Source of the DNA: a virus
Taxonomy: Duplodnaviria; Caudoviricetes
Length of the DNA stretch: 42,604 bases
IMG/VR virus record: IMGVR_UViG_3300016665_000377
Span: 1 to 42,604 of that record
Reading direction: 5' to 3' (one strand)
Shown here: piece after piece, positions 1,479 to 26,969 of the stretch
Position numbering within the stretch: the stretch's first letter is position 1
Layout of the letters: every line of letters starts with the position of its first letter
Notes under the pieces: model-generated
Database searches by the model: none
Told to the model about the DNA's origin: nothing
Seen by the model: the letters and a program-made list of their open reading frames with translations, nothing else
Translations under genes and position numbers: made by a program

Positions 1479-3697
1479 GCAACCGTGTCGTACCAGCATG
1501 GAACAGCTTCAACGCCGGTGAACTCTCGCCCCTCATGGATGGGCGCACGGACCAAGAAAAGTATTTCGCCGGCACCAAGCAGCAACTGAACTTCATTCCG
1601 CGCATCACCGGCCCGACATCGCGCCGTGGCGGCACGCGCTATGTTGGCACGACCAAGGGCAACGGTCCTGTTGATCTTCGCACTTTCGAGTTCTCCGCAG
1701 TGCAGTCCTACGTGCTGGAGTTCGGTGACCAGTACCTGCGCTTCTGGGTCAACCGTGGCCAGCTTCTGAGCGGCGGCTCGCCCTATGAGATCTCGACGCC
1801 CTTCACGGCGGCCAACCTGATCAACTCCGAAGGCACCCCTGCGCTGCGCACGGCGCAGTCGGGCGATGTCATGTGGATCTGTCACGCCGAAGGCGCCGTG
1901 GCCCCTCAGAAGCTGCAGCGGTTCGGGGCCACGAACTGGACAATAACGCCGTCGCCCTTCCTCAACGGCCCGTTCAATGACGTGAACCCGACACAGACGA
2001 TCACCGTCACGGCTTCTGCGGCCACGGGCACGGTCACGCTGACGGCCTCGTCCGCGATCTTCAGCGCCGAGATGGTGGGCACGTCCTTCTACATGGAGAG
2101 CGTCAATCCTGCGGTCATCAAGCCGTGGAAGAGCGGTGCTGCCTACTCGACCCTCAATGCGATCATCCGCTACCAAGGCAACGTCTATCAGGTTACCACC
2201 ACCGGCACGTCTGACGGTGTTCCGCCCGTTCATCTGCGCGGCGTCAGCTCCGATGGCGGTGCGCAGTTCACCTACCTGCATTCCGGCTATGGATGGGTGC
2301 AGATCACCGCCGTGGCCTCTGGAACGTCTGCGACGGCCACGGTCATCAGCCGCCTGCCCGACGAATGCGTCAGCCCGAACACCACCACGCGGTGGGCCAA
2401 GGCGGCCTTCGACAGCGTGCAGGGGTGGCCCACCGCCGTCAGCTTCTACCGCGAGCGCCTTGTCTGGGGCCGCGGGCGCAGCCTGTTCTTCTCGACGGTC
2501 GGCAGCTTTGACGACCACACCACGCGCGAGGGGCCCGACATCACCGTCGCGTCCGCCATCAAGCTCACTTTGGCGGTGGACCGCCTCGACGCGATCCGCT
2601 GGTTGAGCAACAACAACGCCCTGATCCTTTCAGGGTCTAGGAACGAGGTGGCCGTCTCGGAGCAGACGGCGCAGCGCGTGTTCGCCGCCGACAACGTGAA
2701 GGGTGTTCCGCAGACGGAATACGGCGGCCGCCTGTTGCCGGCGCTGCGCGTGGCCGACGCCATCCTGTTTGTGCAGCGCGGCGGCAAGAAGCTGCGCGAG
2801 ATGAAGTATTCTTTCGAAATCGACCGCTTCAAAGCGGACGATCTGACGGTCCTGGCGGACCACATCCTGCAACCGGGTGTGATCGACATGGACTTTGCTC
2901 TGGAGCCCGACAACCTGCTCTGGTGCGCCTTGTCGGATGGAACCGTGGCCGTGCTGATCTATAACCGCGAGCGCGGTGTGGTGGGCTGGGTGCCGGTGAA
3001 AATCGGTGGCGCGACAGAGACAACGGATTATGGCTTCGTGGAGAGCGTTGCTTCTATCGCAGCGCCCGATACCACGCGCGATGATGTGTGGCTGTGCGTG
3101 CGCCGGGTGATCAACGGTTCAACCGTGCGGTATATCGAAGTTGTCGAGAGCAACCGACTTGTGGAGACAGACTCCACAGACGCCTTTTATGTCGATTCCG
3201 GCCTGACCTACAGCGGCACGCCGGTGACGACAATCACAGGCTTGGGCCACTTGGAAGGGCAGACCGTCCAGGTCTGCGCCGATGGCGGCGTCCACGCGGA
3301 TTGCGTGGTGTCGATGGGCCAGATCAGCCTCAACCGGCCGGCGTCCAAGGTGCATGTCGGCCTGGGCTACGCCTCGATCTTGCAGACGATGCGCCCGGAG
3401 GCGGGCGCGCGGGATGGTTCCGGCCAGACCCGGCGCCGTTCGATCAGCAACTGCTTCTTCCGGTTCGACAGCACCATCGGCGGTAAGGTCGGGCCCTCGC
3501 TCGACCGCCTCGACCCGCTGCCGGGTGCCTTTACAAACGCCACGCAAATCGGCGAGATTCCCGGCCTGTTTACAGGAGATCGGGAAGTTACATGGCCTGC
3601 AACCTACGATACGGACGGGTATATCTACGTAGTTCAAGACCAGCCCCTGCCGATGACCGTCGTGGCCATCGTGCCGAGGATGGTCGTCGATGATTGA
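1475..3697 (+). CDS. Tail tubular protein B / nozzle (T7 gp12-like)
   Basis: N-terminal SFNAGELSP, internal GWPTAVSFYRERL, C-terminal QDQPLPMTVVAI; 740 aa; ATGA overlap with the upstream gene. Confidence 0.88.
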   Translation: MSNRVVPAWNSFNAGELSPLMDGRTDQEKYFAGTKQQLNFIPRITGPTSRRGGTRYVGTTKGNGPVDLRTFEFSAVQSYVLEFGDQYLRFWVNRGQLLSGGSPYEISTPFTAANLINSEGTPALRTAQSGDVMWICHAEGAVAPQKLQRFGATNWTITPSPFLNGPFNDVNPTQTITVTASAATGTVTLTASSAIFSAEMVGTSFYMESVNPAVIKPWKSGAAYSTLNAIIRYQGNVYQVTTTGTSDGVPPVHLRGVSSDGGAQFTYLHSGYGWVQITAVASGTSATATVISRLPDECVSPNTTTRWAKAAFDSVQGWPTAVSFYRERLVWGRGRSLFFSTVGSFDDHTTREGPDITVASAIKLTLAVDRLDAIRWLSNNNALILSGSRNEVAVSEQTAQRVFAADNVKGVPQTEYGGRLLPALRVADAILFVQRGGKKLREMKYSFEIDRFKADDLTVLADHILQPGVIDMDFALEPDNLLWCALSDGTVAVLIYNRERGVVGWVPVKIGGATETTDYGFVESVASIAAPDTTRDDVWLCVRRVINGSTVRYIEVVESNRLVETDSTDAFYVDSGLTYSGTPVTTITGLGHLEGQTVQVCADGGVHADCVVSMGQISLNRPASKVHVGLGYASILQTMRPEAGARDGSGQTRRRSISNCFFRFDSTIGGKVGPSLDRLDPLPGAFTNATQIGEIPGLFTGDREVTWPATYDTDGYIYVVQDQPLPMTVVAIVPRMVVDD

Positions 3698-24084: not shown

Positions 24085-24500
24085 TCCTGCACCATCACAA
24101 CGTCCGCCTCCAGCAGCATCCAGCGCGCCGCTTCGAACTCCTCCGCAGGCATCGATGTCGTGCCCCTTCCGTGGACGATCTGCTTCACGCCCGCCTGAAT
24201 GAGCGTGCGCGCGCAGGAAGCGCAGGGGGCGTGCGTGACATAGACTGTGCATCCCGCAGTCCTGATCCCCTCCCTGGCCGCGAAGGCCACGAGGTTGGCC
24301 TCCGCGTGGCTCGCGTAGAGATACTTGGCAGGGCGCTCGCGGCGCTCAGGGGTGTCGAGCACGCCGCGCGGCGGGCCGTTGTAGCCGGTGAGGCGGACCT
24401 CGCCATCGGGGCCGACAAGAATCGCGCCGACCTTCGTTGTGTCCTTCGACTTCTGCGCCGCCCAGTGCGCGAAGCCCATGTAGTAGGCAGTCCAGTTCAA
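24081..24500 (-). CDS. dCMP deaminase
   Basis: 'HAEAN' and 'PCASC' zinc motifs, 'GYNGPP'; TTG start at 24500 after GGAGGG. Confidence 0.9.
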   Translation of the reverse strand: MNWTAYYMGFAHWAAQKSKDTTKVGAILVGPDGEVRLTGYNGPPRGVLDTPERRERPAKYLYASHAEANLVAFAAREGIRTAGCTVYVTHAPCASCARTLIQAGVKQIVHGRGTTSMPAEEFEAARWMLLEADVVMVQE

Positions 24501-24736
24501 TCGTCCCTCCTGTGAACGGGTTTCAGTTCCATGCCCAGCACGTTGAAGCATGCCTCCAGGTCACCCACGCGCGGGTTGTGTTTCTTGCACCAGCCTTGAA
24601 AGGTGTTTCGCGCAATGCCCGCTCTCTCGGCCACGTCGAACAGGCCGATGCGCTGGTAATTCATCTGCACGAAAAGCTCTTGCACCAGCGGGTGCGCGTG
24701 CTGCGGGATCTTGAGCGTGCGAAAGCGGCGCATCAT
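24497..24736 (-). CDS. XRE-type HTH protein, paralog 2
   Basis: 'DVAERAGIARNTFQGW...P....LEACFNVLGMEL'; ATGA overlap. Confidence 0.8.
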   Translation of the reverse strand: MMRRFRTLKIPQHAHPLVQELFVQMNYQRIGLFDVAERAGIARNTFQGWCKKHNPRVGDLEACFNVLGMELKPVHRRDD

Positions 24737-24969
24737 TCCCTTCCCCGGTTCTTCGCGGTCAGTTCCAGACCGACCACGTTGAGGCACGCCTCGATGTTCG
24801 TGACATTCGGGTTGCGCTGCGTGCGCCACGCGATGATGGTTTTCGCTGCCACGCCGGAACGCTCCGCTAGATCCTCGACGCGGATGCGGTGGTGGTTCAT
24901 GGCCTCCCATAGTTTCTGCACGAGAGGGTGCGCTTTCCGGGGAATCGAGAGGGGGCGGAAGTCACGCAT
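24733..24969 (-). CDS. XRE-type HTH protein, paralog 1
   Basis: 'DLAERSGVAAKTIIAW...P....IEACLNVVGLEL'. Confidence 0.8.
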   Translation of the reverse strand: MRDFRPLSIPRKAHPLVQKLWEAMNHHRIRVEDLAERSGVAAKTIIAWRTQRNPNVTNIEACLNVVGLELTAKNRGRE

Positions 24970-26278
24970 CCGCGTACTCCATGAAGGCTGAAATCACTTC
25001 TGCCGCGACTTGCGGGACGATGGCGTTGCCGTAGGCGCGCAGTCGTCCCACGCGGGCGGGAGCCCCATGAGCCAGCGGGAATGTGCCGGGCTCAACTGGC
25101 CGCCACTTTCCATCCCGGCAGAAGAGCCAGTCCGCAGCTCGCCAGTGGCCGTTAGTCGGGCAGGGCCGGTCATCGCCGCGATCTGCGTCAGGCTGGTGCC
25201 TGTCATCTTCGGCGTGATCCCTGTGCCTGCTCGCTCTCCGTCCGTGGCTGAGGCTGTTGGCCACCCCGTGATCTGCGCCGTCACGTCCAGCCTGTCCGTC
25301 GAAAGCCGGCCGTCCCTCATCCGGCCCCCCTGATACCCACCCTTGTGATCCGTCTGAGCGGGTGTCGGCCAGCCCGCCATCTGCGCCGCTCCGTGCATCA
25401 GCAGTTCGTCTTTCCGGTCGCCACCCCGGCTCGACTGCCCGCCCGTCATCGTGTTCGGCGTTGGCCAGCCCGTCAGAGCCGCCGCGTCCGCAGGATTCAG
25501 GCCGGGGTTCATGCCGCGCCGGATCTTCGCTTCCCGGTCTTCCCCCGTCCCGTTGTTCGTGCAGTTCGGTGTCGGCCATCCCGCCACCGCTGCCGCCGCT
25601 GGCAGACGATCCGTCCCTTGCGAAGGGCCCCCGTTCGGCCCGTCCTGCGAGCAGGGGGTTGGCCACCCGGTCAGGTCCGCTTCCCGCACCAGGCACGCGC
25701 ATCCGTGCTTCGTCCCGTGCTTCTCCTTCTGCCCTTGCGAGCGCCCCGAGGTGTCGTGCGCCTGTGGCGTCGTCCAACCTTTCTCCAACAAACCAGAGAC
25801 GCTGACGGATGTGCGGTGCGCCGAGGCCCGCAGCGCACAGATCTGCCGCCCCGATGGCGTAGCCCTCTCTTTCCATGTCAGCGCATACAGTGTCGAGCCA
25901 CTGGAGGCCGTCCTTGCTTGCAACCTGTTCGCCAAAAACGACTGCAGGGCGACACTCGCGGATGAGCCTATGGAACTCAGGCCAGAGGTGCCTTTCGTCT
26001 TCCTCGCCCTGCCTCTTCCCCGCGGCGCTGAAGGGCTGGCAGGGGCAGCTTCCGGTCCAGACGGGACGGGTGTCTGGCCACCCCGCAAGTCTGAGGGCAT
26101 GGCTCCAGACGCCGATCCCGGCGAAGAAGTGGCACTGGGTGAAGCCTCTGAGATCGTCGGGCTGAACTTCGGTAATGGATCGGTCATCAACTTCCCCCTC
26201 TGCGATGTGACCCATCAGGATCAAACGGCGCAGCCACTCGGCTGCATACGGATCGAACTCGTTGTAGTAGGCGGCCAT
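24962..26278 (-). CDS. C5 cytosine DNA methyltransferase, alpha polypeptide (motifs I-VIII and X)
   Basis: FFAGIG (I), GSCPCQPFS (IV), EQV (VI), HIRQRLWFV (VIII), RLRAYGNAIVPQVA (X). ATG 26278 overlaps the upstream TAA. Confidence 0.9.
   Translation of the reverse strand: MAAYYNEFDPYAAEWLRRLILMGHIAEGEVDDRSITEVQPDDLRGFTQCHFFAGIGVWSHALRLAGWPDTRPVWTGSCPCQPFSAAGKRQGEEDERHLWPEFHRLIRECRPAVVFGEQVASKDGLQWLDTVCADMEREGYAIGAADLCAAGLGAPHIRQRLWFVGERLDDATGARHLGALARAEGEARDEARMRVPGAGSGPDRVANPLLAGRAERGPFARDGSSASGGSGGGMADTELHEQRDGGRPGSEDPARHEPRPESCGRGGSDGLANAEHDDGRAVEPGWRPERRTADARSGADGGLADTRSDGSQGWVSGGPDEGRPAFDGQAGRDGADHGVANSLSHGRRASRHRDHAEDDRHQPDADRGDDRPCPTNGHWRAADWLFCRDGKWRPVEPGTFPLAHGAPARVGRLRAYGNAIVPQVAAEVISAFMEYADA
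24994..26100 (-). CDS. Nested alternative-frame beta polypeptide of the methyltransferase (six GWPTP repeats and motif IX)
   Basis: Open frame 24994..26190 inside the MTase; ends in 'QLSPAHSRWLMGLP', which resembles motif IX missing from the main frame. Likely start ATG 26100 after GGAG (26190 possible). Confidence 0.75.
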   Translation of the reverse strand: MPSDLRGGQTPVPSGPEAAPASPSAPRGRGRARKTKGTSGLSSIGSSASVALQSFLANRLQARTASSGSTLYALTWKERATPSGRQICALRASAHRTSVSVSGLLEKGWTTPQAHDTSGRSQGQKEKHGTKHGCACLVREADLTGWPTPCSQDGPNGGPSQGTDRLPAAAAVAGWPTPNCTNNGTGEDREAKIRRGMNPGLNPADAAALTGWPTPNTMTGGQSSRGGDRKDELLMHGAAQMAGWPTPAQTDHKGGYQGGRMRDGRLSTDRLDVTAQITGWPTASATDGERAGTGITPKMTGTSLTQIAAMTGPARLTATGELRTGSSAGMESGGQLSPAHSRWLMGLPPAWDDCAPTATPSSRKSRQK

Positions 26279-26592: not shown

Positions 26593-26903
26593 CTATGCTG
26601 TGTTTGTTCGCTTTTGTTCACGGTTATCTGGTGCGGATGTGGTGCGCGTTCTTCCTCCCCGGGCCAACGCCTCTGCCGCCCCTGCCTGATGTTCTGGATG
26701 GTGGTGGCCGTATGTGCCCAGCAGCGTCTTGACCGTCATGCCGAGAAGGCCAGCGGCCTTCCACGGATCTTCGCCCTCCTGCATGAGCCATGTCGCGGCG
26801 GTGTGGCGCAGGACGTGAGGCGTGACCCCCTTGAGGCCCGCCTCCTCCGCGCAGATCACGAACCCTTGGTAGATGTGCCTGAGACGTTTCCCTCGAAATT
26901 CGA
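26593..26903 (-). pseudogene. C-terminal fragment of a tyrosine integrase
   Basis: 'VTPHVLRHTAATWLMQ...AAGLLG......TYGH' has HxxR and the catalytic Tyr; no N-terminal domains or first Arg box present. Confidence 0.85.
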
Positions 26904-26969
26904 CCGCATGGCGTGTCTGGGAAGTTGCAACTACACTCATGGCGCAGCCTTTCCACAATGTCATTCATC
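26904..26969. repeat. 66-bp repeat copy A (MxDIVERLR..CSCNFPDTPCG cassette head)
   Basis: 55/66 identical by hand alignment to 27979-28044; partial third copy at 27653-27677. Confidence 0.85.

What the first reader, a model, noticed from the sequence alone, without database searches (positions are those of the whole stretch)
24962..26278. Dual-frame split C5 methyltransferase with a six-module TRD-like array
Seen: two same-strand frames stay open over ~1.1 kb. Frame A has motifs I-VIII and X, but its middle ~200 aa is unstructured R/G/D/A filler. Frame B has six 28-37 aa units (GWTTPQAHD, GWPTPCSQD, GWPTPNCTN, GWPTPNTMT, GWPTPAQTD, GWPTASATD; ~25165-25780), each ending L..(A/T)A, followed by the missing motif IX-like LSPAHSRWLMGLP. 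Known: M.EcoHK31I encodes motif IX on a beta polypeptide nested in an alternative frame, and Bacillus phage SPR/phi3T multispecific MTases use tandem TRDs. Inference: this locus combines both, a heterodimeric MTase with six swappable specificity modules, where each module must also keep frame A open. It would act as an expandable anti-restriction array.
Basis: partly seen in the sequence, partly recalled or inferred. Interest (0 to 1): 0.85.

Follow-up and report, generated by a model that had tools for sequence, protein, structure and literature searches.

The report
Hidden-frame cassette array in phage methylase
A phage DNA cytosine methylase gene holds a second conserved gene one base out of frame whose six short cassettes are gained, lost and swapped whole among related phages, and the two products likely form one enzyme in which each cassette would pick a DNA site to shield from host restriction.

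Summary
Confirmed and extended. In this 42.6-kb phage, alpha (26278-24962, minus, 438 aa) carries the C5-methyltransferase catalytic motifs and motif X; beta (26187-24994, +1 frame, 397 aa, own ATG and Shine-Dalgarno) carries a small N-domain, six 29-37-aa WPTP modules and a motif IX-like block. Both frames are intact in 156 of 167 loci, always +1. Across 118 distinct loci: 1-7 modules, 123 types, 113 architectures; array dN/dS is 0.17 in beta and 2.4 in alpha, yet alpha stays stop-free (about 466 stops expected). First, inner and last modules are equally conserved. A near-identical allele lacks exactly modules 3+4. Alpha+beta co-fold (ipSAE 0.91, best control 0.00). Relatives carry such modules in frame between motifs VIII and IX of single-chain or tandem-split enzymes, the TRD position. 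Beta shows no sequence likeness to the M.EcoHK31I-type beta outside motif IX. Untested: expression, activity, DNA reading by the modules, targets. The scan found this layout before on other DNA (8 notes); nine literature searches found no paper on it.

The parts
24962..26278 (-). alpha gene, 438 aa: C5-methyltransferase chain with motifs II-III-I-IV-V-VI-VII-VIII, filler, conserved pre-X block and motif X
24994..26187 (-). beta gene nested in the +1 frame, 397 aa
26194..26201 (-). Shine-Dalgarno-like AGAGGGGG 6 nt before the beta ATG (26187)
   Evidence: -11.0 kcal/mol in the window; family mean -5.9 vs -2.4 at control positions
26231..26269 (-). alpha motif II, placed before motif I
26165..26197 (-). 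alpha motif III-like
26105..26134 (-). alpha motif I (FFAGIG)
26027..26053 (-). alpha motif IV with catalytic PC (C80, invariant in 98 of 98)
25793..25819 (-). alpha motif VIII (R158, R160 invariant)
25160..25780 (-). alpha filler (residues 167-373): by-product of the beta array, kept free of stops
25013..25144 (-). alpha pre-X block and motif X (RLRAYGNAIVP at 25045-25013); overlaps beta motif IX
25963..26187 (-). beta N-terminal filler (about residues 1-75), S/T/P-rich by-product of alpha motifs, kept free of stops
25813..25962 (-). beta N-domain (helix 76-95, hairpin 101-123), predicted to pack on alpha 122-159
25666..25776 (-). module 1, 37 aa, type T4 (14 members)
25579..25665 (-). module 2, 29 aa, type T18 (5 members)
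25468..25578 (-). module 3, 37 aa, type T16 (6 members)
25372..25467 (-). module 4, 32 aa, type T43 (2 members)
25264..25371 (-). module 5, 36 aa, type T2 (17 members; also in the distant clade at 72-75% identity)
25168..25263 (-). module 6, 32 aa, type T7 (11 members)
25048..25095 (-). beta motif IX-like block
25361..25567 (.). 207 nt (modules 3+4, in register) missing from a near-identical allele; joint lies in the imperfect repeat at module junctions

Best explanation
One 1.3-kb phage gene keeps two overlapping reading frames under selection, and their products likely assemble into a two-chain DNA cytosine-C5 methyltransferase whose nested chain carries six exchangeable cassettes that are predicted to each read a DNA site. 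Steps: (1) shown in sequence: alpha has the SAM-binding and catalytic motifs and motif X, beta has its own ATG and Shine-Dalgarno site, an N-domain, the cassettes and a motif IX-like block, and each chain is filler where the other is functional; (2) predicted: beta's N-domain and motif IX block pack on alpha's motifs VII-VIII and X and complete the fold; (3) inferred from position and selection: any one cassette at a time docks in the TRD slot, its WPTP head and L..AA.LAG tail being the constant anchor and the G/R/K/S/N-rich middle the base reader, so one enzyme marks several sites as the Bacillus phage multispecific enzymes do; (4) shown as outcome, inferred as mechanism: cassettes come and go whole, by recombination at the ~30-nt imperfect repeat at their junctions, and only cassettes that leave the alpha frame open persist; (5) inferred: the marks protect phage DNA against Type II restriction. 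Odds: two chains made and needed about 0.9; cassettes read DNA given that about 0.78.
For: Both frames intact, always +1, in 156 of 167 loci (some contigs were fetched twice, 118 distinct); among loci fetched with beta alone alpha is intact in 77 of 80 (2 cut by contig ends, 1 with a stop), among loci fetched with alpha 72 of 80; 78 of 80 loci from bacterial genomes. Array dN/dS: B 0.17, A 2.37, third frame 1.73 (141 same-type pairs); T at beta position 3 before AA/AG/GA 0 of 3376 against 1275 of 11162 elsewhere; 466 +- 19 alpha stops expected, 0 seen (this set was filtered for intact frames). dN/dS 0.17 first, 0.17 inner, 0.15 last modules; 0.13-0.21 for the variable middles alone. Frame B: 216 stops over alpha codons 2-41, none over 42-165, in 112 loci; 0 seen against 107 +- 8 expected in beta's own filler; SD energy -5.9 against -2.4, p 3e-23, 109 loci. 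378 modules, 123 types, 113 architectures in 118 loci; only 3 of 107 pairs with alpha cores at least 90% identical share an architecture; contigs of two runs (one study) skip exactly modules 3+4 with an 11-nt overlap; junctions within an array are 63% identical, middles 32%. 55 of 260 modules of a distant clade are at least 50% identical to modules of this clade, 3 after shuffling. In 5 of 19 actinophage-type loci motifs I, IV, VIII, modules, IX and X lie in one frame, and in 6 more the modules share a frame with IX and X. ESMFold2 alpha + beta 62-392: score 0.91, best of 3 controls 0.00; the mark was reached by 116 of 157 solved complexes and 2 of 215 mismatched pairs; runs agree in at least 56% of contacts, partner pLDDT at least 57; beta 370-375 sits on alpha 416-422 and 154-156; the pass may rest on likeness to solved single-chain C5-MTases. 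An ungapped profile of the beta block picks canonical motif IX in 10 of 23 single-chain MTases (0.06 expected) and in the M.EcoHK31I-type beta. The window avoids 17 of 39 testable 6-bp palindromes, a sign of restriction pressure.
Against: No direct evidence of expression, methylation or DNA binding. The module head resembles the TRD 'TL' region only weakly: best hit there in 6 of 23 single-chain MTases against 2.6 expected, 5 of 23 against 3.3. A gapped HMM of canonical motif IX did not find the beta block (9 of 118). Modules are low-confidence in both AlphaFold2 models, and only module 1 is named in the predicted interface. No module type could be tied to a site once one marine clade is set aside, and module number does not track site avoidance (rho 0.15, p 0.36). 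In M.EcoHK31I the TRD is assigned to alpha, not beta (PMC2836561, PMC3404938 passages). Broken copies exist: L027, L068, L031, L034/L098, L303, L290, P0136, P0202, P0203.
Confidence: 0.7

Rival explanations
1. Beta is a real partner chain, but the cassettes do not read DNA: they are protein-binding or decoy peptides (for example against host defence proteins), and the enzyme has one fixed or relaxed specificity set by alpha.
For: No PDB, Pfam or NCBIfam match for the modules; weak TL-motif likeness; no module-site link; M.EcoHK31I keeps its TRD in alpha.
Against: Modules lie in frame between motifs VIII and IX in single-chain relatives; alpha's stretch between VIII and X is unconstrained filler, so it offers no TRD; types almost never repeat within an array (1 of 118), as expected if each adds a distinct specificity; lengths (median 37 aa) fit small TRDs (size of Bacillus TRDs recalled, not read).
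Confidence: 0.15
2. Only one position (first or last cassette) is active; the others are a silent store that recombination moves into the active slot, like a shufflon, so each phage is monospecific at a time.
For: Only module 1 is named in the predicted interface; cassettes recombine at junction repeats.
Against: Inner modules are as conserved as first and last ones, also in their variable middles (dN/dS 0.17 and 0.19, 48 pairs); a model can show only one docked state.
Confidence: 0.07
3. One polypeptide is made by programmed frameshifting from alpha into beta (and back), not two chains.
For: Frameshifted fusions alphaN-modules-IX exist on record (L068, P0136, P0202, P0203).
Against: Those fusions lack motif X in frame and shift at differing G runs; beta has an ATG with SD signal in 109 loci and a conserved N-domain that overlaps alpha VI-VIII; alpha stays open across the whole array, which a shift would make needless.
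Confidence: 0.04
4. The two-chain modular enzyme is real but its marks serve phage or host regulation, packaging or self/non-self recognition rather than escape from restriction.
For: No link between module number and palindrome avoidance; many carriers are prophages.
Against: Fast turnover of many types fits an arms race; strong palindrome avoidance in the window and in most of 41 genomes; known Bacillus phage precedent (PMC12707154 passage).
Confidence: 0.04

Closest known systems
M.EcoHK31I (YGGCCR), natural alpha/beta C5-MTase (PMC2836561: passages and supplement; PMC3404938: passages)
   Same: Beta encoded wholly inside alpha in another frame; alpha has I-VIII and X, beta has IX; +1 offset in the E. 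coli homologue L167 (309 and 176 aa); beta's N-terminal ~42 residues are dispensable, as beta's first ~75 are filler here.
   Different: One specificity, next to a restriction gene; TRD assigned to alpha; its beta has no WPTP module and no likeness to this beta outside motif IX; canonical motif order.
Bacillus phage multispecific C5-MTases (M.SPR, M.phi3T, M.H2I; PMC12707154 and PMC8936443 passages; Trautner 1996 seen as a citation only)
   Same: Phage-borne orphan C5-MTases with several short target-recognition units in tandem between motifs VIII and IX, used against restriction.
   Different: Single polypeptide, single frame. Their sequences were not compared here, so homology of the modules to their TRDs is untested.
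M.AquI (CYCGRG), two-gene C5-MTase (PMC3404938 passage)
   Same: Split between catalytic part and TRD-bearing part; matches the tandem-split relatives in actinophages (Kampy gp78/77, Juno112 gp41/42).
   Different: Motif X is on the small chain and the genes are not nested; no cassette array described in the passage read.
PHROGs phrog_363 (alpha) and phrog_1008 / phrog_31772 (beta); 'putative Mte8-like protein' of phage K1ind2
   Same: Same proteins; K1ind2's record lists both overlapping CDS.
   Different: No function or modular structure is recorded; epsilon15, RcIroh and Bas73 list only alpha, PMG1 only beta.
ShiLan out-of-frame HNH insertion in an actinophage methylase (PMC11855218: abstract and introduction)
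   Same: A second gene hidden out of frame in a phage methylase, with the host frame kept open as filler.
   Different: A homing endonuclease of patchy distribution, not a subunit; beta has no HNH match and is present in nearly all relatives.

Membership tests
C5 DNA cytosine methyltransferases (PF00145) | Motif IV PC, motif VI E, motif VIII RxR, motif I FxGxG, motif X GN | tested here: met
   PF00145 63.5 bits over cut-off 22; C80, E117, R158, R160, F52, G54, G417 invariant in 98 alphas; top fold hits M.HaeIII and M.HhaI
C5 DNA cytosine methyltransferases (PF00145) | Motif IX present | tested here: met
   On beta: ungapped profile 10 of 23, predicted contacts to VIII and X, superposition to M.HhaI 300; a gapped HMM missed it
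C5 DNA cytosine methyltransferases (PF00145) | Canonical motif order I to X | tested here: not met
   II at 3, III at 25-30, I at 48 across the clade; model residue 1 aligns to M.HhaI 35
C5 DNA cytosine methyltransferases (PF00145) | Makes 5mC in DNA | not testable with these tools
   no activity or methylome data
M.EcoHK31I-type nested alpha/beta MTases | Beta wholly inside alpha in another frame, carrying motif IX | tested here: met
M.EcoHK31I-type nested alpha/beta MTases | TRD on alpha; beta homologous to M.EcoHK31I beta | tested here: not met
   alpha middle is filler; no beta similarity
M.EcoHK31I-type nested alpha/beta MTases | Both chains needed for activity | not testable with these tools
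   co-folding supports binding only
Multispecific C5-MTases with tandem TRDs | Several non-identical short units in tandem between motifs VIII and IX | tested here: met
   in DNA order here; in protein order in L527, L529
Multispecific C5-MTases with tandem TRDs | Units carry the TRD consensus and fold | tested here: inconclusive
Multispecific C5-MTases with tandem TRDs | Each unit confers one target; single polypeptide | not testable with these tools
   targets unknown; the window's enzyme is two-frame, so the single-chain feature does not hold
Out-of-frame homing endonuclease insertions | Nested ORF is a nuclease with patchy presence | tested here: not met
   no Pfam hit for beta; beta present in 72 of 80 alpha-fetched loci intact and partly in all others

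The most novel reading that the evidence does not exclude
Thousands of phages across several bacterial phyla share one library of well over a hundred 30-50-residue DNA-reading cassettes that plug into a cytosine methylase; in this branch the library sits on an unannotated nested gene and works in trans, so a phage rewrites its methylation pattern by recombining cassettes under the rule that the overlapping catalytic frame stays open. It would be a natural programmable 5mC writer, and the family shows the stages single chain, tandem split and fully nested.
Probability: 0.55. Interest if true: 0.9.

Novelty: new variant of a known kind. Interest (0 to 1): 0.72.

Why it matters
Two designs known from a few textbook enzymes (a nested second subunit; tandem TRDs) appear joined and common: about 1,800 IMG/VR stretches match one motif pattern of a sister clade, 454 loci in species-representative genomes and 234 GenBank phage records match beta. 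Annotation mostly records only the outer gene, so cloning or codon-optimising it alone would destroy the enzyme and hide its specificity. If the cassettes read DNA, they are a ready catalogue for a recognition code of very small TRDs, a way to infer which restriction systems a phage meets, and parts for building methylases with chosen sites. The gene is also a clean model of overlapping-gene evolution, with insertions and deletions of whole units under a two-frame rule.

Tried and rejected
Beta folded alone: pLDDT 55, pTM 0.25, no fold match of Z 5 or more: uninformative. Module and beta profiles against PDB sequences: nothing meaningful. ESM Atlas: only unnamed viral clusters by features; two PF00145 clusters by structure under the bar. 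Model of the frameshift fusion P0202: modules below pLDDT 50, so their place in the fold stayed open. Alignment A5 put beta rows on alpha columns and was not used. Module-type versus site test in 41 phage records: T7 and T2 with CCGG depletion, family-wise p 0.0035 and 0.01, 7 other types not significant; it rests on one marine clade (L082 0.53, L085 0.48; other carriers 0.79-1.05) and is weak in the prophage set (p 0.05 and 0.18): a lead only. No RNA holder listed. Promoter and terminator scan: nothing on the minus strand. Single-chain forms were absent among 121 loci found with the W-type motif IX pattern (0 fused; 68 dual, 43 cut short with X in frame A, 3 duplicates, 7 other) but turned up with a second pattern. 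L540's in-frame 'module' is a false hit and is not counted. The 22 type pairs seen in both orders include several that come from one array with a repeated type and from loose clusters, so they are not leaned on. Papers: nine searches found none on this family; the library lacks most subscription journals and the 1988-1999 multispecific MTase papers, and REBASE was not at hand. The origin of the name 'Mte8' was not found.

Full report
Setting. The window is a 42.6-kb phage record, CheckV 100% complete, with podovirus-type head and tail genes on the plus strand and a replication block on the minus strand. The methylase lies in that block between small genes and a dCMP deaminase and SNF2 helicase; no restriction gene was found among the 30 ORFs scanned.

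Observation. Alpha runs 26278-24962 (438 aa) and hits PF00145 and phrog_363; beta lies in the +1 frame, 26187-24994 (397 aa), and hits phrog_1008 and phrog_31772 but no Pfam or NCBIfam family. Six modules of 37, 29, 37, 32, 36 and 32 aa fill 25776-25168, followed by a linker and the motif IX-like block at 25095-25048. One correction: position profiles from single-chain MTases place motif II at alpha 3, III at 25-30 and I at 48 throughout this clade, while the sister clade has the canonical order; in the structural alignment model residue 1 falls on M.HhaI residue 35 (Z 8.5, rmsd 3.7, 159 aligned, model 1-314 on chain 35-300, model of the relative P0202). PMC5944983 (passages) reports natural permutations only in the variable region, from a search for X before I, which would not see this order.

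Both frames are genes. Of 167 loci (160 IMG/VR, 6 GenBank, the window) 156 have alpha and beta each as one ORF, always +1; the rest are 4 cut by contig ends, 1 with the array deleted, 2 (one contig) with an alpha stop, 2 frameshifted, 2 whose beta C-block missed the HMM. 78 of 80 loci from bacterial genomes, mostly Pseudomonadota and Desulfovibrio relatives, are intact. Along alpha, frame B has 216 stops in codons 2-41 and none from 42 to 165 in 112 loci; 109 loci have an ATG in that zone with a Shine-Dalgarno signal nearly as strong as alpha's own (-5.9, alpha -7.0, control -2.4). Substitutions follow alpha over motifs I-V, both frames over alpha 122-151 and 376-415, and beta over the array: 1294 of 2130 differences at beta's third position, dN/dS 0.17 for beta, 2.37 for alpha, 1.73 for the third frame. 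Alpha's middle is thus filler, yet the 3376 places where a T would make an alpha stop never have one, against 11% T elsewhere. Where relatives do not need that frame, it has stops (1-6 per locus in 9 of 10 split or single-chain loci with in-frame modules besides L540).

The array is a shuffled library. 118 distinct loci hold 1-7 modules (6, 30, 36, 30, 13, 2, 1 loci), 378 in all, 123 types at 50% identity, 113 architectures; a type repeats within an array once. All six window types occur in other phages at other positions. Phages with identical alpha cores differ by whole modules, e.g. T2-T16-T32-T7, T2-T16-T7, T2-T32-T7. Contigs in two runs of one study match the window at 25933-25568 with 1 difference and go on at 25360, skipping 207 nt, exactly modules 3+4, with 11 letters that fit either side; the joint is in the 26-29-nt imperfect repeat at module junctions. 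First, inner and last modules are equally conserved, also in their variable middles, so all seem to act in place.

A wider family. Searching with a motif IX pattern alone gave 121 loci (about 1,800 estimated): none single-chain, 68 with IV and X in the -1 frame and modules in the IX frame. The common phage-methylase tail EPxVGRVAxGVP is simply the other reading of LNPxWVEWLMGFP. The layout also occurs in Paenibacillus, Lacticaseibacillus and (broken) Bacteroides plasmid records. 55 of 260 modules of this sister clade match modules of the window's clade at 50% or more, 3 after shuffling. A second pattern and three actinophage records showed other stages: single chains with I, IV, VIII, modules, IX, X in one frame (L527-L530, L538; one L527 module is 74% identical to type T8); tandem splits with modules, IX and X on the second gene (L525, L532 with 8 modules, L533, Kampy, Jarcob, Juno112); and nested forms in which IX and X are on alpha and the nested frame holds only the N-domain and modules (L526, L531, L534-L537, L539, L540, L291). 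The modules therefore sit in the TRD position whenever they share a frame with VIII and IX, and the last form implies that they are needed in trans for their own sake. No tree was built, so the order of these stages is not claimed.

Structure. ESMFold2 joined alpha and beta 62-392 at 0.91 against 0.00 for the best of three controls (116 of 157 solved complexes and 2 of 215 mismatched pairs reach the mark; runs agree in at least 56% of contacts; partner pLDDT at least 57). Beta 370-384 touches alpha motifs VIII and X and the first helix, beta 116-119 pairs with alpha 146-147, and module 1 is the only module named. Halves of a split gene can pass by likeness to solved enzymes, so this supports the layout, not binding in cells. 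An ungapped profile of the beta block finds canonical motif IX in 10 of 23 single-chain MTases and in the M.EcoHK31I-type beta; a gapped HMM in the other direction failed. Likeness of the module head to the TRD threonine motif (name recalled) is weak, and the modules were not modelled with confidence.

Function. The window avoids 17 of 39 testable 6-bp palindromes (GTCGAC, CAGCTG, AGCGCT, CCATGG, GACGTC all 0) while keeping GGCC-, GCGC- and CGCG-rich ones, which shows restriction pressure but not what the enzyme marks. The attempt to link module types to sites in 41 records gave only a clade-driven CCGG lead. Multispecific anti-restriction methylation is therefore the best reading by position, selection, non-redundancy and precedent (PMC12707154 and PMC8936443 passages), not a result.

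Relation to known enzymes. An E. coli gene found with a published M.EcoHK31I primer has the 309-aa alpha and a 176-aa +1 beta starting as that paper's beta primer does; it is a stand-in, not shown identical to M.EcoHK31I. It has no module and no N-domain likeness, and the papers place its TRD in alpha. So the window works like M.EcoHK31I in layout and likely like the Bacillus enzymes in target choice, but is a member of neither group as defined. GenBank shows the nested ORF was noticed once as 'Mte8-like' (K1ind2) and is usually missed. Eight earlier notes of this scan describe the same layout on other DNA; they are not independent support. A look-up for the permuted order and single-chain forms returned none. 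bioRxiv supplements were not seen.

Verdict. A real, strongly selected dual-coding gene with a recombining cassette array, one member of a large and apparently undescribed family; new variant of known kinds; interest 0.72; the single-module swap is the decisive test.

Noticed in passing
window 1-42604: Strong avoidance of many 6-bp palindromes (GTCGAC 0 of 53 expected on both strands, CAGCTG and AGCGCT 0 of 34, CGATCG 2 of 47, CTCGAG 2 of 37) while TGGCCA, GGGCCC, GCGCGC and CGCGCG are kept.
   Followed up: partly
window 26105-26269 (-): Motif order II-III-I-IV in the whole phrog_363 clade, a local permutation of the SAM-binding half not covered by the survey in PMC5944983.
   Followed up: partly
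window 26593-26964 (-): 123-aa ORF matching only the C-terminal part of a tyrosine integrase (PF00589, phrog_1): a remnant or the end of a longer broken gene.
   Followed up: no
window 24497-24969 (-): Two tandem, mutually similar small ORFs (78 aa with HTH_26 hit; a second starting MMRRFRTL) right after the methylase; apparent duplicated regulators.
   Followed up: no
L162:1001-3496 (EBPR siphovirus 2 gp44): Alpha is 831 aa; beta starts about 1.2 kb later than usual, so a large insertion or extra domain lies near alpha's start.
   Followed up: no
L290:1300-2560 (Bacteroides plasmid record): Alpha has three in-frame stops, at least two at Trp positions, while the nested beta with five modules is intact.
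   Followed up: no
L027 and L068, about 3135-3170: Two near-identical contigs frameshift in opposite directions at the same G run inside module type T2; assembly error or slippage.
   Followed up: partly
L289:1312-2802 (Paenibacillus plasmid record): Motif IX block appears twice in the nested frame, with the matching pre-X block doubled in alpha.
   Followed up: no
L167:2498-3427: RefSeq lists only alpha for the M.EcoHK31I-type gene; a TL-like stretch (GETYTLDS) lies in alpha; the primer matched 73 of 5426 E. coli genomes.
   Followed up: partly
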